From the NCBI GenBank assembly GCA_036172245.1, contig JAYWIR010000061.1, positions 124,001 to 188,000 on the forward strand: DNA of 64,000 bases, given 5' to 3'. This document shows positions 11,451 through 54,975 of this stretch, piece by piece (the first letter of the stretch is position 1; each line of letters begins with the position of its first letter). A program made the position numbers and the translations under genes. Under the pieces are notes generated by a model. That model was not told the origin of the DNA. It made no database searches and saw nothing but the letters and a program-made list of their open reading frames with translations. The DNA is from Raillietiella orientalis (Eukaryota).

Positions 11451-11641
11451 GGGTGTTGACTTTTTCAGGAGGTCTCAAGGGCATCTCACGTGCCTCGTGT
11501 GAACCGACCTCTATCTCCCGCGTGGCTGCGGTCACCTCTCGTGATGCCAAGCGCTGTGGGTTCGAACCCCACCCGGGAAGGATGGGTGCCGGCAAATGGA
11601 TGCAACTTGGGTTTCGAGTTCCTCCGCAAGATGACACTGGT

Positions 11642-12551
11642 TGCTCTTTATTTCACCCGGTCACGCTGGGGCGTTTATTTCAAAAAAAATATTTACAAAA
11701 AAAAAAAACAGTCACATGAAATGTAACAAAATGCCTCCCTTCGTAGTGGTTCCACACCACCAGTGCAAAATGAAATACCCCGGAGGCTCTGCTTCTCGTG
11801 AGCCGCTCCCCGATGAAGTCCGCACAGGATAAGTGGGGGAAGGGGTAAACAAAAACAAAAAAACACACACAAAAGTTCAGTCGAAGAATGTTGGGGGGGG
11901 GAGGGAAGGGATCACAGATTTCTTCCTGGCATCCTCAGCATACCCTGAAGGCTGGAGGATATTGGTAACTTCCTCCTTTTGCTGGCAGAGATGTGGCCAT
12001 CACCTTCCTCATGAAGGAGCAGGTGATCACGATGACCTCACCGTTCGACTGGCCTCTTCCTGCGCGGTTTCTCGCCGCCACGATTCCACGAAGGCAGCAC
12101 GGATCTGCAAGGGAAGCTGCAGGCGGCATCGAAGAGGCGCCGCAAGACCTCTTTGAAGCTGCCCATCGGGAATGGGAAGACCGCAGCGAAGCGTTTTCAG
12201 GCACTCGGGAGAACAACACAATCCAACAACAGGTGCGGGAAGGTTTCCCGTTCCCTGCACCTGGCACAGTTCGTCCAGCGGTGGACTCGTGCGTGGCACG
12301 GGATCGCTCAGCGCAACAACTGCAATGCCGAGTCCCGCCACTTCAGGGGAAGCGTGATGCTGTCCACAAACACTGGGGGTATTCTGCCTCTTTGGGAGGA
12401 ATGTCCAGGAATTTCACCCAGAGACGAATTCCGTTGGGGAGGAATGAAGGGGTACATGCGCCAACCAATTGACGCGCCATTCAGCATCCCAGCTGCTTCT
12501 TTTTTCCGGTGATCTCGCAGGATACTTCCCATATTGCGGGCACATCTCTGT
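11642..12551 (-). mobile_element. 5'-truncated Tx1-like LINE, copy A (CCHC finger + 3' UTR)
   Basis: Minus-strand 'NCARCRERETFPHLLLDC' near 12220-12275 is homologous to the finger at 54220-54285. Flanked by cactggt at 11635-11641 and 12555-12561. Confidence 0.65.
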
Positions 12552-12591
12552 TTCCACTGGTTGCCTTTCAGGCATCGGACGCGGCATTGGT

Positions 12592-13227
12592 TGACACCCG
12601 GTCACGCTGGGGCGTCTACTTATAAAAAATAAAGTAGGCAAGACGTCTGTGGCAAGACATTTGATGCTGCGCCGTTAACTTATAACTACGAGAAGCAACC
12701 TGCCAGGAACTGACACGTAGGCCAGTGGGGTTCGCCTCGGCAGCATAGGGGAAGGGGAGACAAACATAAAGAAAAAGAGAGACAACAGAAAACATACGAT
12801 CACAAAAATTAGGGGGATTTGGAAGGATCACTGTGTGTTGGAGGTGGTCCTCTGCATCCTTGTGAGGATGCCAGCAATTTCCTCCTTCACTGTTCCCAGA
12901 TGGGACCATCTTGACGTTGTCCTCATGAAGAGGACAGCAGAATAGATCACTTCTCTGTCGTCCTGGCCTCCTCTGGAGCTGTTCCATGCAGCCACGGTTC
13001 TGCGTAGGTAGCAAAGTGCTGCTAGGGGTGCGGCCGGCGTTAGGGCGTCGCGCGGGAGGAGGCGCCTTCAAACGTCTCTGATGTTGCTGCTGGGATTCCA
13101 AGGGTCGCAGCAAAGCGTCCCCAAAGGGGCTGGAGGGCAACACAGTCCTTTAGGAAGTGCGGGAAGGTTTCTTGTTCCTCACACCTTGCAAAATTTGGAT
13201 CCACAACACTTCAGTGGCTGTCTGATT
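12592..13227 (-). mobile_element. 5'-truncated Tx1-like LINE, copy B
   Basis: Collinear diverged homology to about 23243-23830. Flanked by gcggcattggt (12581-12591) and ctgccactggt (13228-13238). Confidence 0.7.
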
Positions 13228-13449
13228 CTGCCACTGGTGAAAACCGGAAACCAGATTTCCCTTTTGACTAGCCGGGATTGAAAGTTAATCTTCCGGAGTC
13301 CTTCCAGGACATCAAGGGGCTGGTTCCCTTTGGGGTTTCTTTTCGGTTGAGAATATCCTTCAATGGCCGTGCATATCCGTGTTGGGAACGTCTTGGACCC
13401 CAAGGACGTCAGAAGAGACTCCAATAGCCTCTCTTAGCGGTACGGAGAG

Positions 13450-15600
13450 GGATGAGCTTTGATTTCGAAGTGCATCGTAGGAATCCTTTCTCGATAGGCG
13501 TCTTCTAGGCACTCGTTCTCCGTGCAAGCTTCTCAGGACACTTCTAGCGTGAAACATCCATCACGTCGAACACCTTCAACCGAGGCTATCCCTGGATTCT
13601 GAGTACCTGGTACATTCCAGAAAGAGTCTTCCCGATTCTAAGTGAGCTGCGGCCTTACTGCCGCCAAAAAAAGAGATTCTCCCTTGCTACTGAGGGTCTG
13701 GTCACATTTAGCGAATGCGCTTTTCCTCTTCATTGGAGCATCCATCAGCTGCTAATTCATGTCAGATGTGAATGCTGGGTCTAGACAAAGCAGAGGACCC
13801 ACCTTTATGGGCGGAAGATAAAGAAGCCAATCCAACAGTTGCAGTTTGGGCTTCATTGATTTTCAATCCGTAGGAACGGAATGCACCGGTGGTGCCGTGA
13901 TCGAGAGCGAGAAGATTTGCAGATTGCAAAAAGAATGAGCAGGGAGTTAACGACAGCGTCGAGTACTGCAGCCTTTCGTGATTTCCAAATTTTGCACAGT
14001 TCTTTCCCGTGATTCGTTTGAACTACCGTAGAGCATCCGCCAACGTGTCCTTCGGAACGTTGGATAGGAAGAAGGAACTTTATGAGCTCCAGCTTCCATA
14101 TTCGCAACAGACAGTCTGGAGTCAAGGGACTCATGACCACTGCAAGCCACCATCTCACCAGACATGAAAAAATGGTTCATCGGAACGTGTGTGATCCGAA
14201 CACGAGATCCTCTCCTGCGTTCCATCCAGTTGAGATTTTTCCTCTTTTGCATTCGGCCATCTTGTTGCGTTGCCTTTGTTTTTATGTCTCCTGATTGGCC
14301 CGCAGACCAGTGGCTGCGATGAGGCCGTTGCTCTGCACATGGCAGCTCATTTTGCTGAGAAAGTACGCTGCATGTTCGCTTAGAAACTCAAAATCTCAGT
14401 CCCGAAACAACGTTGCATGCACTCGAGGGTGCTGCTGTTCTCCCGTTTTGTACAGTGCGAAAGCTCCCGAGAAAAGTTCGAGATCTCCGGGAAGTTTTCG
14501 TGGATGAAGAGCGACCATCTCGTAATGAGCGGCACAGCCTCGGTCGACACGGGCACTTTGATACCTCCGTACCAAGAACTTAGCATCATCTCAGCCTTCG
14601 ATAAGAAGGGACGCTGCAGAGTTCCTGCAAAGTCTCAGGGTACCGAGGTCTGCCCGCCGCCAGAGCCGAGGGACCAGCTATCTTTGTCTTTGCTTTGAAG
14701 AGAGAGGGAAGGAAGAAGGAAGGAAGGAAAGGAAAAGGAGTAAGAAGAAGGGTAAAGGAGTAAAGGAAGAGGACGGAAAATCGAAGGTCACGAAGTCCTC
14801 AACACTCCACGCAAGTCTGGCAGGAGTCACTAGCGACTTCGGGGGGCTTCCGACCCCTCAGGGGCAGCAGAAACGATACAAAGGTTTTCAGTCCCAGAGG
14901 TCTCGGGGTCAAAGTGACCGATGGTCCCCGTCGGAGAAACGCTCAAGGTAGAGCGGAAGACCTTGGTTTCCGGGCCGTAGGCGGCTGCGGGGAAGGCACA
15001 AGAGCGGAACTCGCAAACCCTCGCTCCTGAGTCGCCTCGGGGGAAGAAGGGGATGGGGCGGCTCATCTCCACCTCTCCCTTTGGGGAATCCGGGAAAGCA
15101 AAAAGTAAAGCGTGGTGTCTTCCTGACCCCTATCCTGGTTTCCTTCGCTTTCTCTTCTTCGACCGATGTTCCCTGTCGTGCGAAAAGGGGAGGAGAGGGG
15201 TGTTCATGTTGGTGGAGCAGTAGCAATGGCGGCATCTGCCATTTGAACTCTGCGCTTATTCGCCCTGCAGCACTCGATTCGCGCCAAAGATCCACGGATC
15301 GCCTTTTCCGGGATAAGCTTCGAGCTGAAGAGGCATCGACCAGAGGCTGCAAGCGAGGACCACATGGCCACATGTGAAGTCTGCTCGGGGCGCGCGGGCC
15401 CCGAGCAGACTTCCACCGGTAACGATCGTCGCATGCTGACGCTGCTTTGATGACAAGGACGATGGCTTCTTTTTCCTTGGATCCTCGGACCTCGTCTCAG
15501 CTTTCCTGAGAAGGCGGCGGATTCGAAACGGTAGCAGCGAAGGCGCGCGTCTACCCTGCTCAGGGGGGAGCGGCGCGTAGATTATACTACGCTGGGAGCC
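13450..15600 (-). mobile_element. Decayed LINE ORF1/ORF2 5' relic
   Basis: Knuckle-like 'RCRHCYCSTNM' near 15205-15240, a pyrimidine-rich inter-ORF tract (reverse complement of 14700-14770), then a possible APE start. Confidence 0.3.
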
Positions 15601-15619
15601 CATGCGCTCCTGCTCACTG

Positions 15620-16680: not shown

Positions 16681-16879
16681 GGGGAGGGATGCCCTCCTTC
16701 GTCCCTGCCCTCCTCCTTTTTTTATTTTCCCCATCCATCCGTTCTGAGCTTTTAGAAATGGCCGACCTACGCATCGATGGATCCTCCACTTCAGCTTCTT
16801 TTCGCTTCCCGTTAGGAACCGCGTTCCCCGCTAGCTTGTCCAAGAGGAACATATTCCTTTTGGACAAACGCCCCTGAGT

Positions 16880-17637
16880 GAGCGGGTGGTGAATTTCCTC
16901 CCGTCTCATCCCTGTTCAACGTGGTGAATCCGGCAGCATGGGAGCAAGGGATTCCACGTCAGAAAGGCGTTCCTCGGGAGAAAATGGTGATCCTCGCTCT
17001 TGCGTCTGAATAGCTCAATGCTTTCTCTCCGCGCCCAGAAGACGGCGGCCCTGCTCCTGCACTGGAGACTCGCATGCTCCTGATGGGTGGGGAAGTTCCT
17101 CCGAACTATGGGAGGCATGGGGTGAGGATTCCACTTTTTCTCTTCACACCTTTCTTTCTTCTGGACTGCAGAGCCGTTCTCCCGGGCTGGTGACGTGTGA
17201 CAGGGACCCTCTTCGTCTGGAGGGGCTCCACCAGGACTGCAGTCGCTGTGAGTTTTATGTGGCCTTCCGCCGACCTCCAGTAAGGGCCGTCTCCGAGATC
17301 TCGCTCTGCACCCGGGACATCGAGACAGCTCACCTCACAGCGAGAAGACTGGAGGCGAGAACGGGTGAACCCTAGGGGTTTATTGTCTTCTCGCCCATCG
17401 CCATTTTTATTCATCTTTTGTCCCCTCTCCCTCACACTCCAGTCCCCTTCTTCGGTTCAAGAGCGCCTCAGACATTGTGACTCCTCCCCCCCTCCCGTTT
17501 GATTGCGTCATGCATCATGTAGTGATGCGCATGCGTGTCCATTTCTGACGATCAAGCGCCCCTATGTGACCTTCTTATCCCGGATGAGGAGGTCATATGG
17601 GACCATTGATTTCAAGTAAATAAATAAATCAAAAACA
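16880..17637 (+). mobile_element. L1/Tx1-like 3' end relic with stem-loop and A-rich tail
   Basis: 'LLHWRL' near 17051-17070 and 'FLLDC' near 17155-17169, a 17-bp hairpin at 17563-17599, and tail taaataaataaatcaaaaa. Confidence 0.5.
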
Positions 17638-17649
17638 GAGTCCCACATG

Positions 17650-21450: not shown

Positions 21451-21499
21451 GCTCCGGCTAAGCCGGGTGAAAGATCTTCGTGGAATCTCCTGGATCGCG

Positions 21500-22929: not shown

Positions 22930-25000
22930 GAGCCAGTCACCCCATCGTGGCCCGCGTTGGCGGGCGCACGGCTGCGATCTCCGCGAGTGGCACCAAATGT
23001 TGCGGTAGAAACGGGAAATCCTGCTGTTTCCACACTGGGGTTTCCGGTGCAACCAGGAGGGACGCATGGTTCCGGAGGAGTCGCGTGCCCGAGTTGTTCC
23101 AAGTGTGGGGCGATCCCCACACTCGGAACCGGAGAAGAATCGCCGCCGAGAATGAGGAAGGGGGGGGTGCGTCGTGGGTTTCGAGTTCTCTCTGCAGTAC
23201 GGCGCTGCTTGACCTGTAGGCTTCGGATGAGGAGGCACTGCTTGACATCCGGTCGCGCCGAGGGGTCATTTATAGAATAAGCATACAAGTGTGTGGCAGG
23301 ACGTTTGATCCTGCCACGTTACTTGTGATTACGAGAAGGAACCTGCCGGGAACCGGCACGCACGCCAGCGGGGTTCGCCTCCGTAGCACAAGGGAAGGGG
23401 AGACAAACAAGAAGGAAAAAATAAAACAAAAAACATACAGTCGGAAAAAACGGAGGGGGTTCTGGAAGGGATCACCGGGTGCTGGAGGGTGTCCTCCGCA
23501 TTCTTGTAAGGATGCCGGCCAATTCCTGTTTTATGGTTCCCGTATGGAACTATCTTGACGTTGCCTTCCTGAAGAGAACAGCAAAGTAGATGGCCTCCTC
23601 TGGCAGTGCTGCTCCATGCAGCCCCGGTCTCGCTGCGTGGGCAGCTAAGTGCTGCTGGGGATGCGGGCGGCGTGAGGGCGTCGCGCAGGAAGAGGCGCTT
23701 TACAAAGTCTCGGGAGTTGCCGCCGGGGGCTCCAAGGATCGCGGCAAAGCATTTTCAAAGGGTCCAGAGGGCAACACAGTCCGCTAGGAGGTGCGGGAGG
23801 GATTTCTGCTCCCTGTACCGTGCACAGTTTGGATACACACACACCCGTATCCACAGATGCCGGCGGGCGTTGCACGGGGGGTCCCAGTGCAGCAGCATCA
23901 ATGCTGACTCATGCCAATTCAAGAGAGGGTGCGAGTGTTCATGAGCACTGGGGGCCACTGCAGGTCTTCCTCCTGAATACCAAGTAGCACGCCCAAGCGC
24001 AAAAGTCCATGAGGTCGAGCACTCGGAATCGCGGCGTCAGTGACCTGGCCCGTCGTCCACTCGCCCAGTCCTTCCGGAGATTTCCACAGTGATCTCCCAT
24101 CTAGCCGTAAGGCTGCTGCCCATGTGCTCCCTAAGGAAGGGCAACACGGCAGTGAGGGAGGTGTGGCGCTGGTGGAAGCCGGAAATCCTTGGATTTCCCC
24201 GTTGACTGGCCAAGGTCCTTCCAGGAATCAGGCAGCCGGTTCTGTTCGGGGTTTCCCTTCAGAGTGTGGAGAAGCTCTTTGCTCTCTTCCGAGAGCGGCC
24301 CTCCAGAGAAATTTGGTGAACCTCCCCCTTCGGGGTCCTCGTCAGAGGAGCAAAGATGAGTTCCCTTGCGGGTTCCCTTCAAAAAAGAAATGAAAAATGA
24401 TCCCTCAAATTTCCTTATTCTCTGGGGAGAATAAGGAAGAAGAGGTTCCCTTCGGAGAAATCAGAGCAAGGATTCCCTCCAGGGTTCCCCACCAAGAACT
24501 CTTTTCTCTGGAGCCCTTCCTGGATTCATAGGGAGGTCTCCTTCCCAGGTATCTCTTAACTTGAAGAGTCATCACGCATCCTCGGGTGGCATGGACAGTG
24601 TTAAAGAGCCTCGTGAGCCCCTAGGCGAACGGTTCTTGAGGTACTCAGAGGACCAAAAAGAAAAACCCGAAAACAAAACAAAAAAAGGTGGAAGGAAAGC
24701 AGCGAAGACAGAAAAGAACCCAAAGGGATTTCCATCTCGCCGCCGCTTACCGTCACGGCTTCCGGATCCGTACTTTGGCTATCGGGACCGAACGTCCACC
24801 TCCATCAAACTTCCAGTTTCTTTCCGAACCCGGGAAACTCCTGAACTCCAGCGTCGCCGAAGCGTCCAATAACGGAGCGGTTTCAAGGGTCCCCTCTGCA
24901 GGAGTAAACAGCTGTTGCCTCGCTTGTCGAGGGGCAAATTGCTTTTTGTCAACTCGGGTGATCCTGAAAGCCGTGGCGAAAAGGGGTAATTGATTAGGAT
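22930..25000 (+). pseudogene. SNX9-like repeat 5' part interrupted by Tx1 insertion
   Basis: Head 22940-23242 and body 24163-24690 align with the uninterrupted copies at 26660-27420 and 30025-30780. Confidence 0.55.
23243..24162 (-). mobile_element. 5'-truncated Tx1-like LINE, copy C
   Basis: 23299-24160 is a near-identical reverse complement of 53900-54761, giving the same ORF-track peptides. Flanks are gaggcactgct (23232-23242) and gtggcgctggt (24163-24173). Confidence 0.85.
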
Positions 25001-26480: not shown

Positions 26481-26659
26481 AACAGGCTGCAAAAGACATT
26501 GATGTTGATGTTGCTGCTGCACGCAACAGTACTGTCTCGGCAAGGTCTTGTCGCAATCTTCGGACGCTGTTCGGTTCTTTTCCTCGTTCGAAATGAGCCA
26601 CGACCTGCTTTCTCACCCGCATGGTCCAGGGCGTTTATTCGAAACAACGGGGGGGTCGC

Positions 26660-27750
26660 GTCGGCGGCCGTGCGGCTGCAATGCTCTCCTCCGCGCGTGG
26701 CGGCGGACGTTGTGGTTTCAAATCCCACCCGGGAAAGGGTCGACGCCGAGAATGGGGTGTGCGTCGTGGGTTTCGAGTCCCCCCAGAAGGATGACACTAG
26801 TTGGCCTCGGTTCGCTTTGGGTTCGCCACTAGTGGAAGCCGGAAGCCCCAATGGAATGGCCGGGATCGGAAGTTGACTCTCCGGGGTCCTTACAGGACAT
26901 CAACGAGCCGGTTCCCTGCGAAGTTCTGCTCCAATAGTGAAACGGGAGCCCTCCATCGAGTACCATGAGGTGGTAGATTGATACCTCTCCAGAGAAATAT
27001 CAATAAGCGCTCTCTTCCCTCCGGGGAACGACCCTTCCGAGAAATTTAGTAGCATCCCTCCGGGGTCTTCTTCAGAGGATTAAACAAAAAAGAGGCGGTT
27101 CCCTTACTGGTTCCCTCTGGAGAGAAGATAGAGGATGACTTCCCCCCTCCGGGATACTCCTCCGGAAGGAATTAGCAAGAGGAGGTTTCCTCCAGGGTTC
27201 CTATTCAAGCGTGAGAGGACTCCTTCCAGACTCCTTCCTTTAGAGCCTTTCTGGATTCAAAGAATGGTCCCTCCGGGGTCACCTCCTAACTTGAAGAGTC
27301 AGCACGCTCCTTCGGGTGGGCGTGAATAGTGCTAAAGAGCTTCGTGAGCTCCTAGGCGAACGGTTTTTTAGTAATTAGAGAATCAAAAAAACAAAAAAAA
27401 CAATAAGCTCACAACAAAAACAGCAATGGTAGCACTGCTTATCCCACCAAGTTCAATGTACATAGTACCTGCCGGTACCTCGACAAATAAGATCGGGGAT
27501 TTGGAAACACCGAACGCCTGCATCTCCTGAGGGATGCCGGCAAGGATGCCTCCATCTGTGTGGCTCCCAGACGGAGCCATCTCGTCGCGATCTCCAAAAA
27601 GAGAATGGCGAAGCGGGTGGTCTCTCCATCGTGCTGGCCTCTTTCGGCGGTGTTCCAGTCAGTCCCAGTCTCGCCAAAGCAGTAGCAAAGAGCTGCTGGA
27701 AATGCAGCTAGAGGGAAGAAGGGCATCGCACATGAAGGGGCGCTTCAAAG
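26660..27750 (+). pseudogene. SNX9-like repeat 5' part, empty Tx1 target site
   Basis: 'VCVVGFESPQKDD' (SH3 start-like), two cactagt motifs near 26796 and 26827 with no insertion, 'RFPAKF' near 26910, then linker and A-rich Lys-coding tract. Confidence 0.55.
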
Positions 27751-29013: not shown

Positions 29014-30024
29014 ATCTAAGAGAATTCTAAGAGAAACAATCTCACTGATTGCTCTTTTTTCCTACCAAAATGCTCAGATGACTGAAGAACGAGGACGAGG
29101 CCGGAGACACGCTTCTAGCGCTCCCGTCCATCCGCAGAAAAACGGGACAATGGACTTTCACCATTCAATTTCCCATGTTCCTGACTCCTTGTTCTCTCAG
29201 GAAGAACCCGGGTGCATCATTCAGGCAGTCCCTCCGATTCCTGAGGGAGGGAGACGAGATTCGCAGGAGAGCTTGTCCCGTAAACAAACAGCCGGGGACG
29301 TCCTGCGTCCCGAAACAATTCGGTTGATGAACGCCTGTCCCTTCCATTGAGGCGGCGGGGCCAAGCACGTACGCAGGGTGCCCCTCGTCCTTCAGGGCAT
29401 TCTTCTAGCCGATTCAAAGGGAACTACCTTCCGGGCGGCAGCGGAATCTCAGATTTCCACGCAGTAGCAGCACTCCGCTCCATCAACCCCGAACAGAAGA
29501 GCTCAGGATTTGGCGAATCGCCTTTTCACCCGGAGAAGATCCATAGCCTCTGGACATTGGAAGAAGCTAACTGGTTCGTTTGTTTGTTTTGCTAAAAAAG
29601 AAAAGACAAGACAAGGAAAGAAGGGAAGAAATCCACAGCTTCCGTAGCCGTTCTTGAGGACACTGGACTTGGGCGCTGAACAAGTGATGGCGCCAACTGG
29701 CAGACTGAGAAGGCTGCCTGGTCTCGAATCGCTTTTCGGTCATCTCGATCAATCCAAAGGAGTTGGCAGGAGTTGTCTCAGGCACGAGGTGCCAAGGTGC
29801 AGACTGTAGCGATCTCTTGCAGCCAGTCCAGGCGGTCTGCCAGAGAACAAACCACACTCTGCATCTCCAGAGGCGCGCGGTTTCCAATCAGGCATGGCTT
29901 GAGGATCAGTCAGTGAGAGCACTATCATAGCGAGAGGATGCTTCCAGCTTCATTCTGGAGCTCATTTCCTGCTACCGAGATGATCCCCTCTGCGTGTAGG
30001 CTGCCTTAGGGAAATCCGCTTTGG

Positions 30025-30953
30025 CAACCATGTGGCTACGGTCTCTGCGCGTGGTATCAGGCGTGGATCGACGCCGAGAAGCGGGTGCGTTGTGGGTTCG
30101 TGTTTCCCCGCAAGATGACACGCTGATTGGCCTCGGTTGGCTTCGGGTGTGGCTCTGGTAAAAGCTGGATGCCTCTGTTGACTGGCCGGGATTTGAAGTT
30201 GAACCTTTGGGGTCCTTCCGCTGCATCAACCAACTGGCAACATGGGCCAGTTTCCTTCGGGATTCCCCTCCGGTTGTGGAAATCGAGCCTTCCATCGAGT
30301 ACCACGGAGCTGGTGGATACCTTTTTTGGGAGTTGCGTTTCCAGATTATGAAGAAGCGCGCTGCTCCCTTTGGGGAGCGGACCCTTCAGAGAAATCTGGA
30401 AGCGTCCCTTCGGGGTTCTCTTCAGAAGAGAGAGAAGCAAGGAGACTTTCCCTTGTGAGCTCCCTCCAGAGAAGAAATTCCGAGAGCGGATCCTTTCCAG
30501 GTTTTCTCTGGAGAAAAATAAGGAGTGGTCACCTCCATGGGATCCCTCCGGAGAGAATGAAAAAGGGGTTCTCTTCAGAGTTTCCTTCCAAGTTGACTAC
30601 TACCTCCGGGGCTCTTCCTGGATTCATAGGGTGGTCCCCGCGGGGTTATCCCTTGACATGAAGATTTTTACAAACCCTTAGATAGCATGGACAGTCTACA
30701 AAGAGACTTCGTGAATCCCCCTCCAAGGAAGCGAACGGTTCTTCGGCACTCGAAGAACCAAAGAAGAAGAAAAAAAAAGGGCCGCAAGCGCGAGGAGCCG
30801 CAGCACCATTTCCGCTTCCTTGCGGTCAAGCAGCGTTCATGTTCTTCCGTCTTTTCCTTGGAGGAATTCACGCGTCACCTTCGGGCCAAGAAGGATGCAC
30901 ACGGAGGGATTGAACAGCTGCACAAGGGAGTCAAACCTCCCAGCAACCTCTAA
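30025..30953 (+). pseudogene. SNX9-like repeat 5' part (SH3-linker-PX start), empty Tx1 target site
   Basis: Head continues directly into body. 'TGNMGQFPSGF' (SH3 GxFP motif) near 30233-30265, and ORF 30687-30953 ends 'GIEQLHKGVK' (cf. PX FxxLHxxL). Confidence 0.55.
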
Positions 30954-36099: not shown

Positions 36100-37830
36100 T
36101 TGCAGCAGGCAGTGATTCCTTCCCTATCCCCAGTTTTATTTGTTTTTTCTCGTATTTCATGAACGTTATTTTATTTCTACCTCCCCTCCGCTGCCGAGGT
36201 GAATCACGCCGGTCTGCAAACCGACAACCAGCCGGTCCACAGTCGAATTGAGCGTGGTAGGACCACGTGTGTCCTACCACAAATTGTGAGTTTATTGTGA
36301 ATTTTAATAAACGCCCCCGCGTGACCTGGTGGCAGCCAGGTCTCCTCTCATTCGCGATCCTTCCCGGATGCGAGGCATGCAGCACGTGCGATGAGCTCCC
36401 TTCTTCGGCCGAATGGAAAGTGCGGCGGGCAAAGATCTGCCTTGCAGTCACTGGCCACGAGAACAGCGGTGGATCAAGTGTGTTGAAAAGGATGCGCTGT
36501 TGCCCATGCTTGCGAAAACCTGCACCCATCTGCCCTTCCGGAAACATCCCGGAAGCACGTCCTGCTGAGAGGCTTCTGCAGGAGGGAAACTGAATCCTTT
36601 CTAGACCAAACTCTGCTCTGACCCTTTAGGTACCTCGCTGAGAAAGACGGAAGGATGCGATTGATGACCACTGATGTAACCTTCTTCGAAAGCATAGGAA
36701 ACGTCGTTCACTGCGACAAGGGTGGTTCTTGTTCTGTGGACTTCCACGGACTCACTCTGTGTGAGAAGCGCTCGACTGCCTCATAAAAGGACCTCTCGTG
36801 TGCCTCCTTGGTGCCGTATGCCGCGACATCCTTCTTCGGGAGCAGGAGCTGTCTGCTCCATTCCGATGACACCGCCACATGCCTCACCTATCCAGAAGGG
36901 TGCCGCAGAAGAAAACTGCGTTTACAAGATGCTTCTAGTTCTAGTCTCAGCTGAGATGAGGACGGTCTCCTACGCCGAAGTCATGTGCTTTTCTTCCCCT
37001 TTTGCAATCCTGGATTGCGGCAAGATGGTCAGCAAGCTTGCCCTTCCGGGGACAGGAACGGACCCTGAATGATGCCTGCATTTCTAAGTGCTCCCTTGAA
37101 GGGCCTAATGAGGAGCCTTGGGCGCAACCGTGGGGACGCGTTCCTGCGGGAGCGGAGCTTTCATTCCCTTCGGCGTGACGCAGATCGAAAAGGCTTCGCT
37201 CCCTCCCAACTCGAATCCGGGACCCCTATAGATGCCTCCCCGTTTGCGCAGTTTGCGCCCTATAAACCGTGCTTTTTGTATGAGCGTCTTCTCCGACGTG
37301 GAGAAAGCTATTTTGAGCAGTTGGGATCTCATGCTCGTTCCCAAGGAGATTGTTCTTCTGAAACCCCACATTTTCTCTCTGCTGATCGTCAAAGCTAAAC
37401 AGAGCACTTGTTAAAACAAGGTCTTAAGGGAAGGAGGAGACGGGGGGCAACAAAAAGAAAGAAGGAACTTTCTGGGAACATTTGTAAACAAACACGAAGT
37501 CTGCACGCTGTCATTTTCCATGGAACCAGAATTTATGAACCAGCAGTTTTCATTCCGCCAGAGATCCTGCGCCGCACCCGGACGCGCGCGATGCTGGATC
37601 GCTCGCTCGCGCAGCCATCGCTCGAGGAAGCCAGCAGCGTGGATCGTGATGCAGAGGTGCTTTCGTGCCACTCGCGGAGCAAGCGGTGACCTCGTGCGAG
37701 ACGCCACCCCTTTGATGAGCTGGGGTCATCCTTCGCCGAAGGAAATCCTCCGACCGGTCTTGTCGAGCTACGAAGGGGCCCCGCGATCGAGTGTGTGTCC
37801 CCCGAAGAGCAACGCCATCATCCCATAATA
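36100..37830 (-). mobile_element. L1/Tx1-like RT to 3' end relic
   Basis: Degenerate RT motifs at 37400-37800, and 'NTLDPPLFSWPV' (cf. ETxxHLLFxCP) near 36450-36485. Confidence 0.4.
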
Positions 37831-38659: not shown

Positions 38660-41220
38660 ATGCGTGCAAAAACGATGGAAAGGGACGTTCCCCGGAAGCT
38701 TTAAGGATAACTATTTAGTGAGCGGAGTGAAGCGAAGTCATTCGAAATCCATGATTTCCCATCGCATGCGAAAAAACTACGGTTGGAAAAAGGAATGCAA
38801 GCGTGGAAAGCCATCAACTAAAAGAAGCAGCCGCGAAAACCCCCAGGGGTGACAGAGAACGAGGGAAATGGGACATTCCAGGGTCAGTTTCTGTGCAAGA
38901 GAAACTGCTGTTTTCCCTCACCTCCCTTGTGCTTCGAAGAAACAAGGAAGCAAGTCCCGAGGAAATTTCCTCCGGTGTTTGTTTCGGAGAAAATTCCGAA
39001 GAGCGAGAAAACCTTTGGCTTTCCTCTACCGCAAAACTCCACTAGACGGAGAGCAGGAAAACACACACACACACACACATTCGAAACGCCTGTTCCCGGT
39101 ATACGCGTTACCTAAGGGCGAACTCCGACTCGGAAGAGAATCTGGCAAACGAGAGATGCGGAAGTCCCTTCCGTACCATCAACAACAGCCCGACTGAAGG
39201 TTAGCAAACCACTCGGACGCCAGACCCATTTTTAGAGGAATCGCCACCTACGCTTACGTTTCTTTTGGGAGGGTTTTGGAAACCTCGCGAGCAGAAGATT
39301 TAGAGTTTGGTGCTTCCAAAGAAGGGCCTCTGATCAGATTGCAGGATGGGAATCCCAGGAAACTTTCACGTCAGTTCGCTCGTTTGCCGCTTTCGGAGGT
39401 CAGGATTGGGAACAAGGAAGGAAGGACCTGAGCACCAAGAGATACGGAAGCAGCCAGACTGGAGATTGCTCGATCCTTTGCGTTCACTTCTTTTGAACGT
39501 TCCGGGGAAAAAGCCATCCGTGGTAATCACCTGGGCTCGAATCGCTAAGCTTTGCTTTCGGGACGCCTCTTGCGAGAGCGCCAGCTGCACACGCGCTCGC
39601 CTTCCGACAAAGGTCGCGGGAGCAGATATTCCCGAAACCAGAAGAGAAGGTAGGCGTTTTATAAGAGAAATCTGAATGATGCTCACATTTCTGCTTCATA
39701 GATTTTCATTCTGCGGAGGACGGCTCCCCATTGTCAAGGAAACAACGACGGGCTCGTTCGCCATTGAAACCGCCGTTTGGTGTTTCCTTTCCTTTTGCAT
39801 TTCTGGCATTCTCTCGCCCTAATTCTTGCTGAGAGCGTCGGTTTCTTGCAGCCAACTTTGCAATCGTGGGCAGGAGCTCGAGTTTCCCAAGCTCTGCGAT
39901 TATTGTCTCCTCGCACTGTCTGCAGCAGCCGAGAAAGCCGAAATCCTCCTGCCATCTTCGCAGATGGGAAGAGAATGCCGAGAGACGATCCCGAAGATGA
40001 GGAGAGTTAAGCGATTCTGAAATTTCCATCCGCTCACCATGCTCCGAGTGAGCTTCCTCCTGCGCCGTCCCGACGCTCGCCACTCTCCTGGTGTCCGACC
40101 ATCGGTGATTCCAGCCGAAGTGGACCAAAATTCTGGAACCCTCCCCAGCGCGAGTGTCCCCGTTCCCCCTTCGGAACGAGACTGCTCTCGGGAAATGGAA
40201 GCGATGTTGCGTTAATCCAAGCACCTGTTTCCTGGTCACCTGAGAAACACAAATACAGAACCACGAAAGAAGACTAAGAACAGAACGGAACTGTCGTCCT
40301 TCAGTGTCCCGCAGCACGAAAGAACAAGCAATTGCAAAACCAGAGGGTTCCCTTCGCGGATCCAGAAGCTCCAAGGAATTCAGAAGTGAATACTTTCCGG
40401 GTTCTCTCCGGAGAAGAAATGAATAACGCTTCCTCCTCCGAGGGTCCCTCCGGAGAGAATAAGAAAGGGTTTCCTTTCATGTACCCTACCAAGAGTAAGA
40501 GGAACGAATTCCTTCCTCCGGAGCCTCCCTGGATCCATTGGGTGGTCCCTCTGGGGTTGTCCCCTGTGCTGAAGAGTTGTACTTACCCTCAAGCGGCGTG
40601 TGCAGTGTTAAAGAAGAGCTTTGTGAACCCTCCCTGAGAAGGCGAACGGTTGTTCAGCACTTTGCGAACCGAAAGAAAAAGATGGAAGGGAAAATAGCGA
40701 AAAGTGTGGACTTCGCAGTTGTCTACAAGTTACAAATGGTCGCGGGCACAGCAGGACGAGTTCTTCGGATGTCTTTCAAGAGTGGTTGCCTGGAGTTGCA
40801 TGTTTTCTGCGTTAGAGATGGTCGGTCTACAATCTTGACTTCCGCCACGTTTCAGACTCCCTGCCTCCTCCCCTCCTGACCAACAGTGACGCAGATCCCG
40901 AGCGCAGCTCTTCTCAGCCGTTGTGCCCATTGTCCCTCAAAACTCTACTCAAGGTTTGTAAAGACCGAAGCAAGCAGGAGCGCCAACCGATAAAGAATCC
41001 TTCCTCTATCTGTGGACTCAAGGGACTCGCTTCTGCTCATCAAGCATGTGTGCACAGAAGACAGACACAAAACGGAAACAGTGCATACAGAATTCCAAGT
41101 CTTTTTTTTTTCTTCTTTTTTAGAGGAGGAGAAGTTTCTGCTAGAAAGATTTGAAGTTGGGCATCTACGTATAGTCATCAAACGATTTTCCCTTTCGTTG
41201 TCATGAAAACAAGAAACGGT
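38660..41220 (+). pseudogene. SNX9-like copy split by a LINE (parts at about 38660-39050 and 40330-41220)
   Basis: 'KGTFPGSF' (SH3 end); linker homologous to 30440-30780; 'RKKKMEGKIAKSVDFAVVYKLQ' (cf. SNX9-family 'K..KFKGIKSYI.YKL'); 40930-41215 weakly aligns to the reverse complement of 28030-28260. Confidence 0.5.
39100..40330 (-). mobile_element. L1/Tx1-like ORF2 relic (APE end, linker, RT start)
   Basis: 'WSDTRRV', 'RARRCFLDNGEPSS' (cf. RSRxxWLxxGE), 'TTDGFFPGTFK' (cf. PGxDGxxxEF) and 'FLVP', in the correct order. Confidence 0.6.
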
Positions 41221-41794: not shown

Positions 41795-41972
41795 TCTGCT
41801 CTTATCAGCTTAATATCTGATACGCCACCTTGAGTGGCGTATTATTTTAAATACTTTAATGTCTGATGGCCAGTATATTAAACTGCTTTCTGAAAGTAGA
41901 TGGGACTCTTGGAGCTCGCTCCTCTCCTGTCGCAGGCTGACCCGGTATTGCAGCACTTAGGGATCGGCCTAC
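41795..41972 (+). ncRNA. U2 snRNA 3' fragment (5'-truncated pseudogene)
   Basis: tctgctcttatcagcttaatatctgatacg (stem IIa), tatattaaactg, ggagctcgctcc, and cccggtattgcagcacttagggatcggcc (stem IV loop). It lacks the first ~38 nt including the branch-pairing GUAGUA, and the Sm site is altered. Confidence 0.92.
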
Positions 41973-42249
41973 TGCTCCCCATTACGGGAGGACCGAAAAG
42001 CAAATGCAAAGAGAGATCCAGGTTCCTCACTCCCTCGGGAGGAGAGTTGTACTTAAAAGATGTACAGGAATCCGCATCTCCGTCTAGTCTTCCAGAAGTG
42101 GTAGCTGAATGAAGACTTCGATGACCCCTACTTTTAACCAATCACTACTTCCTAAGCGATATCATAATATCGAAAGACAACTAGGGGTGAACGGGTGTCC
42201 TCCCTGGAGGCCAAGCCAGGAAGAAAGATAACGAGGTAAACGAATTCCA

Positions 42250-49340: not shown

Positions 49341-49399
49341 GTCGCTAATAACCTGCACCCCTTCGGTTGCCCAGTTTTTTTTGCCTTTTTTCTTTTTTC

Positions 49400-52300
49400 A
49401 CGGCAGTAGTGATCTCATGGGAAGACTGTTATTATTGGCCCTAGAATGATGGGACCTCGGTTCGTTCTTGCTGCTTTTCACGTTGGTATTCAGCCATGGA
49501 CCGAACCTGAGAACCATCTCATCATAGCTTGGGTTTTAGCGGCTTAGTTTTCATGCCGATATGAAGTGAGATTCCAGAAATCTCTTTCTTTAGGGAAAAT
49601 GATGCGTCATCTCAAAGATGTACTGTTTGAGATCTCTTCCCCCTGGTTCCGATTCGCGTTCGCTGGAGTGGAGCAAGGAAAACTCTTCTTCGTATTCCAC
49701 TCTTCTTCCAAAGAGGGGGCGGAGTCTCTGACATCCACAAGTCAGGTAGCTTCTTCTTCATCTTCACTCTCAACCTGATCGCACTGATGGTTCTTGAAAG
49801 CCCGATCGTGAGAATAACACGACCGGTTCTCCAGAAGCCTTTCTTGGCGAGCTGTTTCTACAATCCGGGTGTTTGCTCTGCATTTTGCTGAGGCTGAGGT
49901 CCAGTATTTCTCCTTTTCATGAGCCCTTTGTCTACCGCTCGGTGCAAAGAGTGAAAAGAACAAAATACCGAAGGTCGAATGCAAACTGGATGAACGATGA
50001 AAACTCCAGATGTAAATCCTTCCAGGAAACTCTGGTTTTCCTCATCGAGAGGCGACGTTTGCTTGTGAGTATAGGGCTCAGGAACGTCCATCCCCTAGGG
50101 AACGGGCACGCTGGAGGCCTCTTCTTCCGATGTAATAGTCGAGAGCTGCAAAGACAAAGGAGCCGTCGAGCTCCTTCACCGTAGCCAAAGTTTGCAATTC
50201 CATTTTCTATTCTCGGAGTGACTCCTGTACTCCCGAACGAACGGGAAGGCGAGACGTCACTTCTCCGGGACATCCCGGGTTTGCTACTGTCCTGGGAAAC
50301 TGCGGGGGTGAAATCCGCGCGCTCTCGAAGACAAGTGAGCGTTTCGTGCGGCAAATATGGGAATTGTGAAAAGGTGAAATTTATACCCTTTTGGTTCTAA
50401 AAGGCGCTGTGGAAGAGCTGATATATTTATAGCAATGCTGTCCTCGTTTCAGAGACCGATGCCAAGCATCCATGAACCAAAAGTGATTTCATCTCTGACG
50501 ACTCCATGAAAGTGCATGCGGCTCTCTCAATATCTTTCTGTCGGAGGTTTAAAAATGACCGCTGAAGAGTCACTTTATTGGAGAATGCATGGTCTCCCTC
50601 AAGGTCATGTACAGTGAGACCGGCTCGTCGTGCCGCTTCTGGGTGAGAAGAGGACACTGTTCACGTAGGGGGTTGACTGCTAGGAACCAAACCGTTCCCA
50701 TTCGTATGTGGAAAGCAGCCTAATGAAATTTTCGGATGATGTGGGACTTCCTCTGGGGACCCGTATCATTCGAAAAAAAAAAAGAAACGAGTTACCTAAT
50801 GTCCAGACTCCAAATAGAGCAGATCAAGGTGGCCCCTGAAAGGAAACGCGGGTCGCAGACTGCGGGAGAAAGTTCTCCCTGTGCTACCCCTTCCTCTGGA
50901 GCTCATAGCAATCCCACTTAAGTGCAGCATGGGGTGAGAGCTGCTCCTCACAGGGAAGAGCAGCCTTCGATATCCCTGCGATCTGCAGACCCTCGTCAGC
51001 TCTTCGCCATCTCCTGAACCAGCGGAGATGGCAGAGACAACCAGTCTCCTGTCCCGCCGGGAAAATCTTCACCCTTGAACCATCCCATCTCCCCCTAAAA
51101 GAAAAGTCCTGGAACTCATGCGTCCCTTGCATTCCAGTGGCCTCCGTCACGTACCGTGAGAATCCCCTATTATACCCTAGTAGCTTTTGGAGTCGACTTT
51201 CGTTTGTTCCAGGTTCTTCTAAGCGTCATCATCAGCACGATCTTTCGGACATGAAACACGGCACTTCTAAGTAGCAGGGATCCTGAGACGTCAGAGCTTC
51301 TTCGCTCTTTCTGATTTGCAACGAGCTTCTAGGCTTTCGAAAATTCTGGGCACTTTATGAGGGCTTTCGATTCGGACCCCCTGCCTGAGGAACAGCTACT
51401 CGGGACCCGAGGGGAATTGCGTTCTCATAGGAGCACCCGGTCTTCTTCTTTTTTTTTTTCCTCAACACTTTCATTGCACCCTTTTTTTCTTCTGTGCACA
51501 GCTGCACTGAAGTATTTGTGAAAGATGTGCACTGCTCCGCCCACTCGGAGATGCGTGTTAACTCTTCAAGTTGGGGGAGCACCCCGGGAGGAAGGAGATC
51601 ACCCCACGAATCCAGGAAGGACACCGGAGAAAGGAGTCCATTCCTCTCATGCTAGAAAACCCTCCACTCTGGTTGTCTCCGAAGGTAACCACGAAGAAAA
51701 CCTCCTTCCTTATTCACTCCGGAGGGACCTGCTTGATAGAAGGGCCACCACTCCATCATTTCTTTTCCGAAGGTAACCTGGAATGGATCCACTCCCGGAA
51801 TTTCTCCCCCGAAGGGAACCCGCAAGGAAATCGCTCCTATTTGCTTCTCTGAAGAGAGCTCCGATGGGAGGTTTCCAGATGTCTGTGGAGGGCGCTCCCC
51901 GAAGGGATGAGTGCGTTTCTTCACACTCTGGAGAGATACCGATCCCCCAACTCGATAGAGGGTCTTCCCCAGAGGGGGGAGGGCGGCTCCCTTCGCGCAA
52001 TCGCAGGGGAATTCCGAGAACAAGCCGTTCCTCGATTCCTGGAAAGACCCCGGAGGGTCCTCTTACAATGCCTGTCAATCAACGGGCCCATCCGATTTCC
52101 GGTTTTCACCAGTGCCACCCCAAGTTCTTCTCCTCCCTGTAGGCGAGAGCACCTCCTGAGAGGGATTTCGCAAGATTCCTGCTTCCGGAAGGTGCGCCAG
52201 AGATCGGGGAGGAGCTCAGGAGGAGCCTCGACGAGCCTTTCACAATGGGAGAGATCATCACCGCCATCGGAAAGCTCAAGAGGCGCAAGACTCCAGGAGA

Positions 52301-54975
52301 GGACGGCCTGCCTGCGGAGTTTTTCCAATGCTTTGCGGCGGAGCTGACCACCCTGATACAACCCTGCTGATACGAGAAATAGGCGACGTTCCCGCCTCAT
52401 TTCATTCAGCAAGGGTACGGTTCCTTCCCAAAGGAAGAGACCTACGGAGCATAAGCAACTGGCGGTCGATTACCGTGGTAAACGCGAACGCCAAGTTGCA
52501 ACCGAAACTGTGGACCGAGCCGCTGGGGTGGGTGGCAGAAAGCTTCATTAGCCCGGAGCAGTCGTATGCTGTTCCCGGGCGGAGCATGGACGCCAACCTG
52601 TTCTTCGCCAGCACATGGTTCGCGCTCCAACAAGAAAGAGGCAGGATGGACAACGGGAATTCCGGAGCGTCCGTCGGCCAGGGGAGGGAAGATCGGGTGG
52701 GAGTGGGAGCCCTTGCGGGCGTAGTCGACCTGCACAAGGCATCGACTGCGTAGACCAGGAGCTCCTTCTGGAACCGTTGGGACGCTTGGGTTTCCCGACC
52801 GCATTGTCGGCCTATCTGCGCTCCAGTTGGCGCCATGCGCTCATCAATATCTCTTTCAGTGGGCAGACGGTGCACGGCGTACCGGTTTACAGCAGGACGA
52901 CAGCCCTACTCTTTAGCATCTATTTCGAATTGGTGATGAGGACACTCAGGGAGACTCTAGCTCTCCACCCGCGCGTATGTCCCGGCACGCCTGCCGTCTC
53001 AGCATACGCGGACGATCTTCTGCTGTTGCTCCCCATGTCCACGCCGGCATGCGCACTCAACGATTTTTTCGAGTTTCTCATTCGTGGGACGGGCCTGAAC
53101 AAGGCGAAGTCGTCCGTGGTTCCCGTTGGTGCGTCGTGGGCAGGGCGGCCGGACTGGATTCGCCTGGGGATTCCCAACGGAACACCCAGGTAATTTAAGT
53201 ACCTGGGCGCTCCTTCTGAGGGGACTTTTTCTCCTCAGAAGCCTGGTACAGCCGTCTTCAGAAAGCACTGCAGGTGCTCGGCCCGTTCCAACAGGGCAGG
53301 TTCTCCCTGCCGGAGGGGGTCACGGTATAGAACACGTTTGTGGCCCCCCTCCTCCGCCCCTGGCTTTTTGTTTGCTCCCTTTGCCGCCATGCATTTGGAA
53401 GCGGACAAAGGATTTCCTCCGGATCGTCCTCTGAGGCAAAGGGAGGCTCCGAGTCCTCCCAAAGGACTTGTGTGCTCCTCTCAGGGACGGCGGTCTAGCC
53501 CAGGACTCCTGACGCTGGAGCGAATGGAGCTGCAGCTCTAGTTTTGAACTATTGCCCTTATGAAAAAATTATGGAGCACCACCTGGTGCCAATGTGTAGG
53601 TCTCCTCGTCCAGCAAGTCAATGACAGCGTGGAACTCGCGCCCTTTTTTGAGCCCCGTCCACTCAGTCTCATCCACGGCGGACTGCACCTGCGTCAGGTG
53701 GCCACGCAGCCAAGAAAAACGGATGGATCCCGTGCTGCTCCGCGAATGGTAGTGCCTTGCAGGCAATCGTTCGAACGTGGGGGAGGATCCAGGAGCCAAG
53801 CACGGAACAGATGCGACGTTTTATGTACGCGCGTAACAACAATTGCACGCTCGGGGAGATCCTGGAAGATCACGCGAACAGTGCATGGGCAAGCAGGACC
53901 TCCCACACTGCCGTGTTGCCCTTCCTTAGGGAGCACATGGGCAGCAGCCTTACGGCTAGATGGGAGATCACTGTGGAAATCTCCGGAAGGACTGAGCGAG
54001 TGGACGACGGGCCAGGTCACTGACGCCGCGATTCCGAGTGCTCGACCTCATGGACTTTTGCGCTTGGGCGTGCTACTTGGTATTCAGGAGGAAGACCTGC
54101 AGTGGCCCCCAGTGCTCATGAACACTCGCACCCTCTCTTGAATTGGCATGAGTCAGCATTGATGCTGCTGCACTGGGACCCCCCGTGCAACGCCCGCCGG
54201 CATCTGTGGATACGGGTGTGTGTGTATCCAAACTGTGCACGGTACAGGGAGCAGAAATCCCTCCCGCACCTCCTAGCGGACTGTGTTGCCCTCTGGACCC
54301 TTTGAAAATGCTTTGCCGCGATCCTTGGAGCCCCCGGCGGCAACTCCCGAGACTTTGTAAAGCGCCTCTTCCTGCGCGACGCCCTCACGCCGCCCGCATC
54401 CCCAGCAGCACTTAGCTGCCCACGCAGCGAGACCGGGGCTGCATGGAGCAGCACTGCCAGAGGAGGCCATCTACTTTGCTGTTCTCTTCAGGAAGGCAAC
54501 GTCAAGATAGTTCCATACGGGAACCATAAAACAGGAATTGGCCGGCATCCTTACAAGAATGCGGAGGACACCCTCCAGCACCCGGTGATCCCTTCCAGAA
54601 CCCCCTCCGTTTTTTCCGACTGTATGTTTTTTGTTTTATTTTTTCCTTCTTGTTTGTCTCCCCTTCCCTTGTGCTACGGAGGCGAACCCCGCTGGCGTGC
54701 GTGCCGGTTCCCGGCAGGTTCCTTCTCGTAATCACAAGTAACGTGGCAGGATCAAACGTCCTCCCACAGACATGGATGTTTCTTTTTTATAAATATGCGC
54801 CCCGGAGTGAGCGAGTGTCAACCAGTGCCACATCCGTCATCCTGTGGGTGAAACTCAAAACCCGCGACGCACCCAGCACTTTTTGATTCGTCGATCCTTC
54901 TCCGGGAGGGATTCGAACCCGCGGCGCTCGGTGCCACGGCTCAAAGGCCGCAGCCACCGCACGGCCGCGAACGAT
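49400..54975 (-). pseudogene. Most complete SNX9-like copy: head 54975-54821, Tx1 insert, SH3/linker 52118-51440, PX-BAR about 50650-49400
   Basis: Reverse complement of head and body aligns to 26660-27420. 'NGLFSEF' near 52010-52030, 'LQRSFLNLRQK' (50427-50657 ORF), and 'FPYLPHETL..ADFTP' near 50305-50365. Confidence 0.55.
52119..54820 (+). mobile_element. 5'-truncated Tx1-clade (L1 group) LINE: RT, CCHC finger, 3' UTR; frameshifted; 11-bp TSD
   Basis: 'LDEPFTMGEI..KTPGEDGLPAEFF', 'FLPKGRDLRSISNWRSI', 'EQSYAVPGRS', 'VDLHKA', 'AYADDL', 'FKYLG' and 'CVYPNCARYREQKSLPHLLADC'. ACCAGTGCCAC lies at both 52108-52118 and 54821-54831. Confidence 0.92.

What the first reader, a model, noticed from the sequence alone, without database searches (positions are those of the whole stretch)
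11631..54831. A Tx1-like LINE family inserts site-specifically into the SH3-like segment of the sorting-nexin repeats
Seen: four related LINE 3' ends of different lengths (11642-12551, 12592-13227, 23243-24162, 52119-54820). All lie antisense at a (G/C)CACTGGT motif in the same part of the repeat. The longest has a perfect 11-bp duplication ACCAGTGCCAC (52108-52118, 54821-54831), and the others have degenerate versions. Copies at 26790-26840 and 30115-30165 are empty sites. Established: Tx1-clade elements are often target-specific (Tx1 into a DNA transposon, Keno into U2, Mutsu into 5S, Dewa into tRNA spacers), and variable 5' truncation indicates independent insertions. Inference: a new target class (a protein-coding multicopy repeat), i.e. 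a hyperparasite of the SNX-carrying element.
Basis: partly seen in the sequence, partly recalled or inferred. Interest (0 to 1): 0.85.

Follow-up and report, generated by a model that had tools for sequence, protein, structure and literature searches.

The report
Dead LINE family targeting a SINE-like repeat
A decayed jumping gene (a LINE) has landed again and again at one short sequence inside another, non-coding repeat, which is a known habit of some LINEs; the repeat is not a sorting-nexin gene.

Summary
The sequence facts are right. Four 5'-truncated copies of one LINE family (A 11642-12551, B 12592-13227, C 23243-24162, D 52119-54820) lie antisense at ACCAGTG-type motifs in an ~800-bp dispersed repeat. 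D has a perfect 11-bp duplication. Units at 26650-27411 and 29991-30790 are empty.

Independent insertion is well supported:
- The 5' truncation points differ, yet B, C and D abut the identical 23-nt flank.
- A and B hit two motif copies ~30 bp apart in one unit.
- The DNA outside the units is unrelated in all 10 unit pairs.

The interpretation needs three corrections.
1. The target is not sorting-nexin or SH3 coding sequence. It is a non-coding, SINE-like retroposon with T-arm-like motifs, an A-rich tail and frame-breaking indels. None of 570 ORFs hit PX, SH3 or BAR.
2. "Tx1-like" is untested. The RT is a long isolated branch of the L1/Tx1 superfamily.
3. Specificity is not absolute. A fifth copy (34520-36334) and two tail-sharing elements lie outside units.

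C and D differ at only 2 of 865 bases but at 22 of the last 58, which suggests gene conversion. LINEs that target other transposons are already in print. Genome-wide data could not be obtained. This is a new member of a known kind, of modest interest.

The parts
52119..54820 (+). LINE copy D: 2.7 kb, 5'-truncated. It runs from the RT N-terminal region to the 3' end. The ORF is decayed by many stops and frameshifts.
   Evidence: tblastn of P0001 matches aa 22-100 (74.7%), 103-232 (63.8%) and 231-563 (45.6%). YADD motif present in the translation. RVT_1 hit is only E=0.058.
52108..52118 (+). 5' copy of D's target-site duplication, ACCAGTGCCAC.
54821..54831 (+). 3' copy of D's target-site duplication, ACCAGTGCCAC (11 of 11).
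23243..24162 (-). LINE copy C, 920 bp. 23298-24162 differs from D 53898-54762 at only 2 positions. The last ~55 nt (23243-23297) differ from D at 22 positions.
24163..24173 (-). C target-site duplication, 5' copy (ACCAGCGCCAC in LINE sense). Partner at 23232-23242 (AGCAGTGCCTC), 8 of 11.
12592..13227 (-). LINE copy B, 636 bp. Duplication copies at 13228-13238 and 12581-12591, 7 of 11.
11642..12551 (-). LINE copy A, 910 bp, a diverged sublineage, inserted at the second motif copy of the same unit as B. Duplication copies at 12552-12561 and 11632-11641, 8 of 10. It carries 12 extra nt between GGGTG and the target.
34520..36334 (+). LINE copy E, diverged, NOT in a recognisable unit. Candidate 9-bp duplication CCAGGTyTC at 34511-34519 and 36336-36344. 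The 5' end is uncertain.
   Evidence: tblastn of P0001 aa 406-607. Tail match with 1 mismatch. No unit similarity. Motif positions.
26650..27411 (+). Host repeat unit E1, empty. Degenerate motifs at 26823-26833 and 26791-26801 (ACTAGTG in LINE sense).
   Evidence: nhmmer E=5.6e-208
29991..30790 (+). Host repeat unit E2, empty. Degenerate motifs at 30149-30159 (ACCAGAG) and 30115-30127 (ATCAGCG).
   Evidence: nhmmer E=2.7e-218
51443..52118 (-). Body and A-rich tail of the unit that holds D. Its head is at 54821-54995.
   Evidence: nhmmer E=7.9e-154 and 2e-34
24163..24681 (+). Body of the unit that holds C. Its head is at 23085-23242.
   Evidence: nhmmer E=1.8e-137 and 1.1e-30
13228..13676 (+). 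Body of the unit that holds A and B. Its head is at 11481-11641 and the inter-motif spacer at 12552-12591.
   Evidence: nhmmer E=5.2e-81 and 5.9e-36
40342..40698 (+). 5'-truncated unit copy (profile positions 465-794, with the A-rich tail). It lacks the target region.
   Evidence: nhmmer E=1.1e-47
16866..16888 (+). LINE-type 3' tail of element F. F pairs with G (tail at 21447-21469); the two are 63% identical over ~790 nt. Their flanks are unrelated to the unit.

Best explanation
An extinct family of APE-type non-LTR retrotransposons (L1/Tx1 superfamily, exact clade unresolved) inserted by target-primed reverse transcription. It inserted repeatedly and independently at one short sequence, core ACCAGTG within TTTCCGGyTTyC|ACCAGTGCCAC in LINE sense. 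That sequence lies about 170-200 nt into an ~800-bp non-coding, SINE-like retroposon.

Inferred mechanism:
- The element's endonuclease nicks the unit-sense strand after ...CACTGGT.
- The freed 3' end primes cDNA synthesis on the LINE RNA, whose conserved terminus is AAACGCCCCnGnGTGAsCGGGTG plus TCA.
- The second strand is cut 10-11 bp away, which gives the duplication.
- Incomplete cDNA synthesis gives the different 5' truncations.

The unit carries the motif twice, ~30 bp apart, and both copies were hit in one unit. Targeting a multicopy junk repeat spares host genes.

What is shown: the anatomy, the junctions, the empty sites and the unrelated outer flanks. What is inferred: the endonuclease type (no copy in the window reaches that domain), the nick positions, and that the preference holds genome-wide.
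For: - Junctions: B, C and D share the same 5' flank to the base, while the LINE starts at different internal positions: D coordinate 52119, about 53898 and about 54200.
- All four copies are antisense to the unit.
- The 3' junctions are uniform: GGGTG + TCA + ACCAGTG-like.
- Of the 5 units that carry the target region, 3 are filled at motif 1, and one of those is also filled at motif 2.
- The filled sites keep ACCAGTG (3 of 4) or ACCAGCG. The four motif copies of the two empty units each have 1-2 core changes.
- The units are dispersed copies. Outside the unit, no similarity was found between the flanks in any of the 10 unit pairs at E<=0.01, apart from physical overlaps and one 31-nt repeat.
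- Units are 53-67% identical to each other, while LINE B versus C/D is 75%.
- A and B/C/D are only 57-59% identical, yet both target the unit.
- Family identity: P0001 (619 aa) matches RVT_1 at E=4.7e-24. Relatives at about 30% identity carry Exo_endo_phos + RVT_1 + zf-RVT. The best solved match is human L1 ORF2p at E=7e-40, against R2 at about 1e-15.
- Precedent: passages in PMC4494074 and PMC4640811.
Against: - There is only one 64-kb window and four events. No genome-wide copies could be collected.
- Copy E is not in a recognisable unit. Its junction reads GCCAGGTCTCC.
- Elements F and G carry the same tail at unrelated sites.
- Three ACCAGTG sites outside units and LINEs are unoccupied: 14306, 28960 and 44791.
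- The duplications of B and C are badly decayed.
- The C and D sequences are not independent.
- The flank and tail patterns were derived from the same sites they then count.
- No endonuclease domain is present in the window.
Confidence: 0.65

Rival explanations
1. The LINE's endonuclease prefers only a short motif (ACCAGTG or CCAG-type, comparable to L1's TTTT/A). The repeat is hit often merely because it carries two motif copies and is dense in this region. There is no repeat-specific targeting.
For: E sits at GCCAGGTCTCC outside any unit. F and G, with the same tail, lie elsewhere. The empty units have mutated cores.
Against: Ten ACCAGTG sites occur in the window. Five are at LINE junctions inside units, two lie inside LINE copies, and all three free sites outside units are empty. 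The three motif-1 hits share 23 nt of context. All four insertions have the same orientation.
Confidence: 0.2
2. One ancestral insertion into one unit. The filled unit was then duplicated, the LINE 5' part was later deleted to different extents, and the LINE was lost precisely from the empty units.
For: C and D are almost identical over 865 nt. Both C and D have an extra head fragment upstream, at 22946-23007 and 55315-55399.
Against: No similarity outside the units for any pair, including C and D. Three deletions would each have to end exactly at the unit/LINE junction. A and B occupy two different motifs. The 3' terminal 58 nt of C and D differ at 22 positions. By unit identity the empty units are no further from C than D is.
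Confidence: 0.05
3. Spread by ectopic gene conversion between units, or an assembly or polishing artefact that homogenised repeats, rather than by retrotransposition.
For: The C/D tract has 2 differences in 865 nt and then 22 in 58, with the boundary inside the element.
Against: Conversion copies an insertion with its truncation point, yet B, C and D differ in theirs. Duplications and uniform 3' junctions are the marks of target-primed reverse transcription.
Confidence: 0.05
4. One reading: a Tx1-clade LINE that parasitises a protein-coding multicopy sorting-nexin/SH3 repeat, as a new target class.
For: Site preference is real. Tx1-clade elements are often target-specific (PMC4494074 passages).
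Against: None of 570 ORFs hit PX, SH3 or BAR. The units evolve as non-coding sequence. The unit has T-arm-like motifs and an A-rich tail. No clade placement was obtained.
Confidence: 0.03

Closest known systems
Tx1L inserting into Tx1D (a non-autonomous piggyBac) in Xenopus laevis. Christensen et al. 2000, as cited in PMC4494074; I saw passages only.
   Same: An APE-type LINE whose copies sit at one site of another, non-autonomous transposable element.
   Different: The target here is a retroposon with an A-rich tail, not a DNA transposon. Clade membership is untested and the host organism is unknown.
Crocodilian Tx1-Mar families in Mariner-N4_AMi, and Tx1-8_Crp / Tx1-4_AMi in LTR retrotransposons (PMC4494074, passages).
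   Same: Preferential rather than absolute insertion into a particular repeat family, together with non-autonomous partners.
   Different: Those cases were quantified genome-wide, for example 313 of 347 SINEU-3 copies. Here there are only four events in one window.
Keno (APE type) and Utopia (RLE type) in U2 snRNA genes (PMC4640811, passages).
   Same: A precise 3' junction at a fixed target sequence, variable 5' ends, and specificity of differing strength between families.
   Different: Their target is a functional multicopy RNA gene. The U2 gene in this window (41768-41977) is uninterrupted.
Human LINE-1 ORF2p (PDB 8c8j, 8uw3, 8sxt).
   Same: The best solved-structure match of the family's RT: E=7e-40 over residues 3-397 of P0001.
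   Different: L1 has a poly(A) tail and only a loose TTTT/A preference. This family ends in a conserved non-A terminus and shows a long, specific target.

Membership tests
APE-type non-LTR retrotransposon (L1/Tx1 superfamily) | Reverse transcriptase domain of the LINE type | tested here: met
   P0001 matches RVT_1 at E=4.7e-24. D aligns to P0001 over aa 22-563. D's own ORF is sub-threshold, E=0.058.
APE-type non-LTR retrotransposon (L1/Tx1 superfamily) | N-terminal apurinic-like endonuclease | tested here: inconclusive
   All window copies are 5'-truncated and P0001 is a fragment. Only relatives at about 30% identity carry PF03372.
APE-type non-LTR retrotransposon (L1/Tx1 superfamily) | Variable 5' truncation with target-site duplications | tested here: met
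Tx1 clade | RT groups with Tx1 reference elements in a phylogeny | not testable with these tools
   No Tx1 reference sequence could be obtained. In a 54-row quick tree P0001 is a long branch (1.91) lying outside the starred vertebrate L1-like and plant clusters, and it belongs to no starred set.
Target-specific non-LTR retrotransposon | Independent copies at the same target sequence with a precise 3' junction | tested here: met
   B, C and D are at motif 1 and A is at motif 2, with unrelated outer flanks.
Target-specific non-LTR retrotransposon | Most genomic copies lie in the target | not testable with these tools
   No genome, no runs listed, no close loci. In the window, 4 of 5 RT-family copies lie in units, while E and the tail-sharing F and G do not.
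tRNA-derived SINE (the host repeat) | tRNA-related head with a Pol III promoter | tested here: inconclusive
   Two T-arm-like motifs of the GGGTTCGAAyCCC type. However, ARAGORN finds 0 genes and Rfam gives no tRNA match at E<=5 to 10.
tRNA-derived SINE (the host repeat) | A-rich 3' tail, dispersed copies and 5'-truncated copies | tested here: met
   A-rich ends in 5 copies. Unrelated outer flanks. Truncated copy at 40342-40698. No duplications flanking the units were identified.
Sorting nexin (PX with SH3/BAR) coding repeat | PX, SH3 or BAR domain detectable in translation | tested here: not met
   None of 570 stop-free ORFs. The scan covered ORFs of >=45 aa at the units and >=70 aa elsewhere; 16 ORFs inside LINE D were dropped. 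Shorter exons would be missed.
Sorting nexin (PX with SH3/BAR) coding repeat | Coding-type evolution between copies | tested here: not met
   165 of 212 indel runs are not multiples of 3, and mismatches show no third-position excess.

The most novel reading that the evidence does not exclude
A deep, isolated lineage of APE-type LINEs has kept sequence-specific targeting of a SINE-like retroposon over a long time. Two sublineages only about 58% identical both use the site. That would make it a LINE living inside a SINE family, a target type not named in the passages I read. The duplicated motif in the unit could itself be the footprint of a very old, nearly complete 5' truncation.
Probability: 0.3. 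Interest if true: 0.5.

Novelty: new member of a known kind. Interest (0 to 1): 0.33.

Why it matters
If the preference holds across the genome, it adds one more target (a retroposon) and one more lineage to the list of LINEs with sequence-specific endonucleases. Such enzymes interest people who study how retrotransposons avoid harming their host, and people looking for natural site-specific integration machinery. All copies here are dead and no endonuclease sequence is available, so the practical value is small until an intact copy is found.

Tried and rejected
External data
- No whole genome is held.
- The metagenome scan with P0001 gave 7 loci with only distant RTs (22-61% identity on short stretches) and not P0001's own contig.
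- Earlier-findings look-ups gave nothing.
- A homologue search with the phosphatase ORF, meant to place the host organism, found none.

Analyses that did not help
- Pairwise global alignment of flanks against LINEs was discarded because shuffled controls gave about 76% identity.
- The LINE tail hairpin has 5 predicted pairs and no covariation.
- No convincing duplications flank F or G. Only single 8-mers matched, at chance level.
- The idea that the ~24-nt spacer between the two motifs is an old LINE tail rests on about 10 of 24 matches by eye, which is not significant.

Readings considered and rejected
- E's downstream flank has a ~22-nt resemblance to the unit head, but blastn did not report it at E<=1, so it is not counted.
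- A chimera by template switching (the U6-L1 type) was rejected. The duplication flanks the LINE alone, and the two flanks rejoin into the contiguous unit seen in E1 and E2.

A few tblastn alignments run up to 140 nt upstream of 52119 at 26-30% identity. I read these as drift into a chance open frame, because unit homology runs up to 52118.
Full report
OBSERVATION

The window is GC-rich (about 46-60%) eukaryote-like DNA with very few recognisable genes. The element at 52119-54820 (+), called D, is flanked by a perfect 11-bp direct repeat, ACCAGTGCCAC. Its translation is a decayed reverse transcriptase with a YADD motif and many stops and frameshifts.

blastn of D against the window finds two minus-strand relatives:
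- C, 23268-24162, 98.8% over 897.
- B, 12592-13209, 75.0% over 629.

Copy A (11642-12551) is seen only by tblastx and in multiple alignment, at 57-59% identity.

- A fifth, diverged copy, E, lies at about 34520-36334 (+). P0001 residues 406-607 align to it and its tail has one mismatch to the pattern.
- Two elements of about 800 bp, F (ending at 16888) and G (ending at 21469), are 63% identical to each other. They share only the ~25-nt terminus AAACGCyCCnGnnnnnsCGGGTG with the LINE.
- Only D and E carry RT coding remnants. tblastn with 123 LINE proteins found those two places and no others.

THE HOST REPEAT

Aligning the flanks with the LINEs removed gives a unit of about 800 bp. An nhmmer profile of the unit finds:
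- Two intact units: E1 at 26650-27411 and E2 at 29991-30790.
- Three interrupted units: BA, C and D.
- A 5'-truncated copy at 40342-40698.
- Two small head fragments at 22946-23007 and 55315-55399.

Five units therefore carry the target region. Three are filled at motif 1, and one of those is also filled at motif 2.

The unit begins with two T-arm-like motifs of the GGGTTCGAAyCCC type and ends in an A-rich stretch of variable length. ARAGORN and Rfam do not call a tRNA, so tRNA descent is only a suggestion.

The unit is not coding:
- None of 570 stop-free ORFs hit PX, SH3 or BAR. The scan covered all ORFs of >=70 aa in the window, except 16 inside D, and all of >=45 aa at the units.
- 165 of 212 indel runs between units break the reading frame, and mismatches show no codon periodicity.

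The sorting-nexin/SH3 label is therefore not supported. Exons shorter than the ORF cut-offs would be missed.

INDEPENDENCE OF THE INSERTIONS

B, C and D abut the same 23 nt of the unit, TTTCCGGyTTyCACCAGyGsCAs, to the base. That pattern has 3 matches in the window against 0.03 expected, although it was derived from these same sites. The LINE starts at a different internal position in each copy. All four copies are antisense to the unit. A and B occupy the two motif copies, ~30 bp apart, in one unit.

The key control is the DNA outside the units. For all 10 unit pairs it shows no similarity at E<=0.01, apart from physical overlaps and one 31-nt repeat. The units are therefore separately dispersed copies, not segmental duplicates that carried one insertion along.

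Units are 53-67% identical to each other, whereas LINE B versus C/D is 75%. By unit identity the empty units are no further from C than D is.

A single ancestral insertion would require three deletions that each end exactly at the junction, plus two precise losses. I reject it.

A COMPLICATION

C and D differ at only 2 positions across D 53898-54762 (865 nt). They then differ at 22 positions in the last 58 nt, and their flanks are as diverged as any other pair.

D's reading frame is badly decayed, and C shares that decayed sequence. C also has a decayed duplication. The patch is therefore best read as ectopic gene conversion between two old copies, or as an assembly or polishing effect. It is not recent retrotransposition. 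It leaves the junction argument intact, but it removes C/D similarity as evidence of recent activity.

LIMITS OF THE SPECIFICITY

- E's flanks show no unit similarity. Its junction reads GCCAGGTCTCC, with a candidate 9-bp duplication.
- F and G lie at unrelated sites, and I found no duplications around them.
- Of the 10 ACCAGTG sites in the window, 5 are LINE junctions in units, 2 lie inside LINE copies, and 3 elsewhere are empty.
- The filled sites keep ACCAGTG or ACCAGCG. The four motif copies of the two empty units each carry 1-2 core changes. This fits a sequence-reading endonuclease, but the sample is tiny.

WHAT THE LINE IS

A HMMER search of 1.84 billion representative proteins with D's 213-aa ORF gave only 3 hits at E<=0.001. 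The best is P0001, 619 aa. It comes from a 2870-bp JGI metagenome contig and matches RVT_1 at E=4.7e-24.

Longer relatives of P0001 are only about 30% identical. They carry Exo_endo_phos + RVT_1, and many also carry zf-RVT. The best solved match is human L1 ORF2p at E=7e-40, against R2 proteins near 1e-15.

In a quick tree of 54 RT rows, P0001 is a long isolated branch. It lies outside the vertebrate L1-like cluster, which I anchored on a frog protein that matches ORF2p at E=1.9e-170, and outside the plant cluster. I had no Tx1 reference sequence, so Tx1 membership is untested. The endonuclease type is inferred from relatives only.

MECHANISM (INFERRED)

- The endonuclease nicks the unit-sense strand after ...CACTGGT.
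- cDNA synthesis is primed on the conserved LINE terminus.
- The second strand is cut 10-11 bp away, which gives the duplication.
- Incomplete cDNA synthesis gives the 5' truncations.

The tail can form a 5-bp hairpin, but there is no covariation to support it.

COMPARISON WITH WHAT IS KNOWN

[quoted passage not shown] Passages of PMC4494074 describe the following:
- Tx1 inserting in the piggyBac-type Tx1D.
- Crocodilian Tx1 families preferring Mariner-N4_AMi.
- Two crocodilian families preferring LTR retrotransposons.

A LINE living in another repeat is therefore a known kind. A SINE-like retroposon as the target was not named in what I read. My two literature searches found no such case, but that is weak evidence of absence.

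VERDICT

Site preference is supported within this one window. The SNX target is rejected, the Tx1 label is untested, and the novelty is modest.

Noticed in passing
window 41768-41977 (+): A full-length U2 snRNA gene (Rfam RF00004, 71.2 bits, model positions 1-192). It is uninterrupted, so there is no Keno- or Utopia-type insertion.
   Followed up: partly
window 23298-24162 versus 53898-54762: A tract of 865 nt with only 2 differences between LINE copies C and D, followed by 22 differences in the last 58 nt. This points to probable gene conversion or an assembly or polishing effect.
   Followed up: yes
window about 16100-16888 and about 20750-21469 (+): Two related elements, F and G, 63% identical. 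They share only the ~25-nt 3' terminus with the LINE family and lie at unrelated sites. They may be non-autonomous partners or a distant subfamily.
   Followed up: partly
window 62460-63186 (+): Two ORFs in different frames match halves of the dual-specificity phosphatase domain (PF00782, E=1e-4 and 7.8e-14). This is probably a split or intron-bearing gene. A homologue search found nothing.
   Followed up: partly
window 11133-11456 (+): A sub-threshold UbiA prenyltransferase match (E=9.7e-5, 22 bits against a cut-off of 34), just upstream of the BA unit.
   Followed up: no
window 22946-23007 and 55315-55399: Extra fragments of the unit head lie just upstream of the heads of the C and D units, but not of the empty units.
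   Followed up: no
window 26433-26463 and 28549-28579: A perfect 31-nt direct repeat, 2.1 kb apart, outside the units.
   Followed up: no
window 6099-6255 versus 48082-48242; 32211-32330 versus 32912-33035: Two further inverted repeat pairs, the first 70.8% by blastn and the second seen by tblastx only. They may be other repeat families.
   Followed up: no
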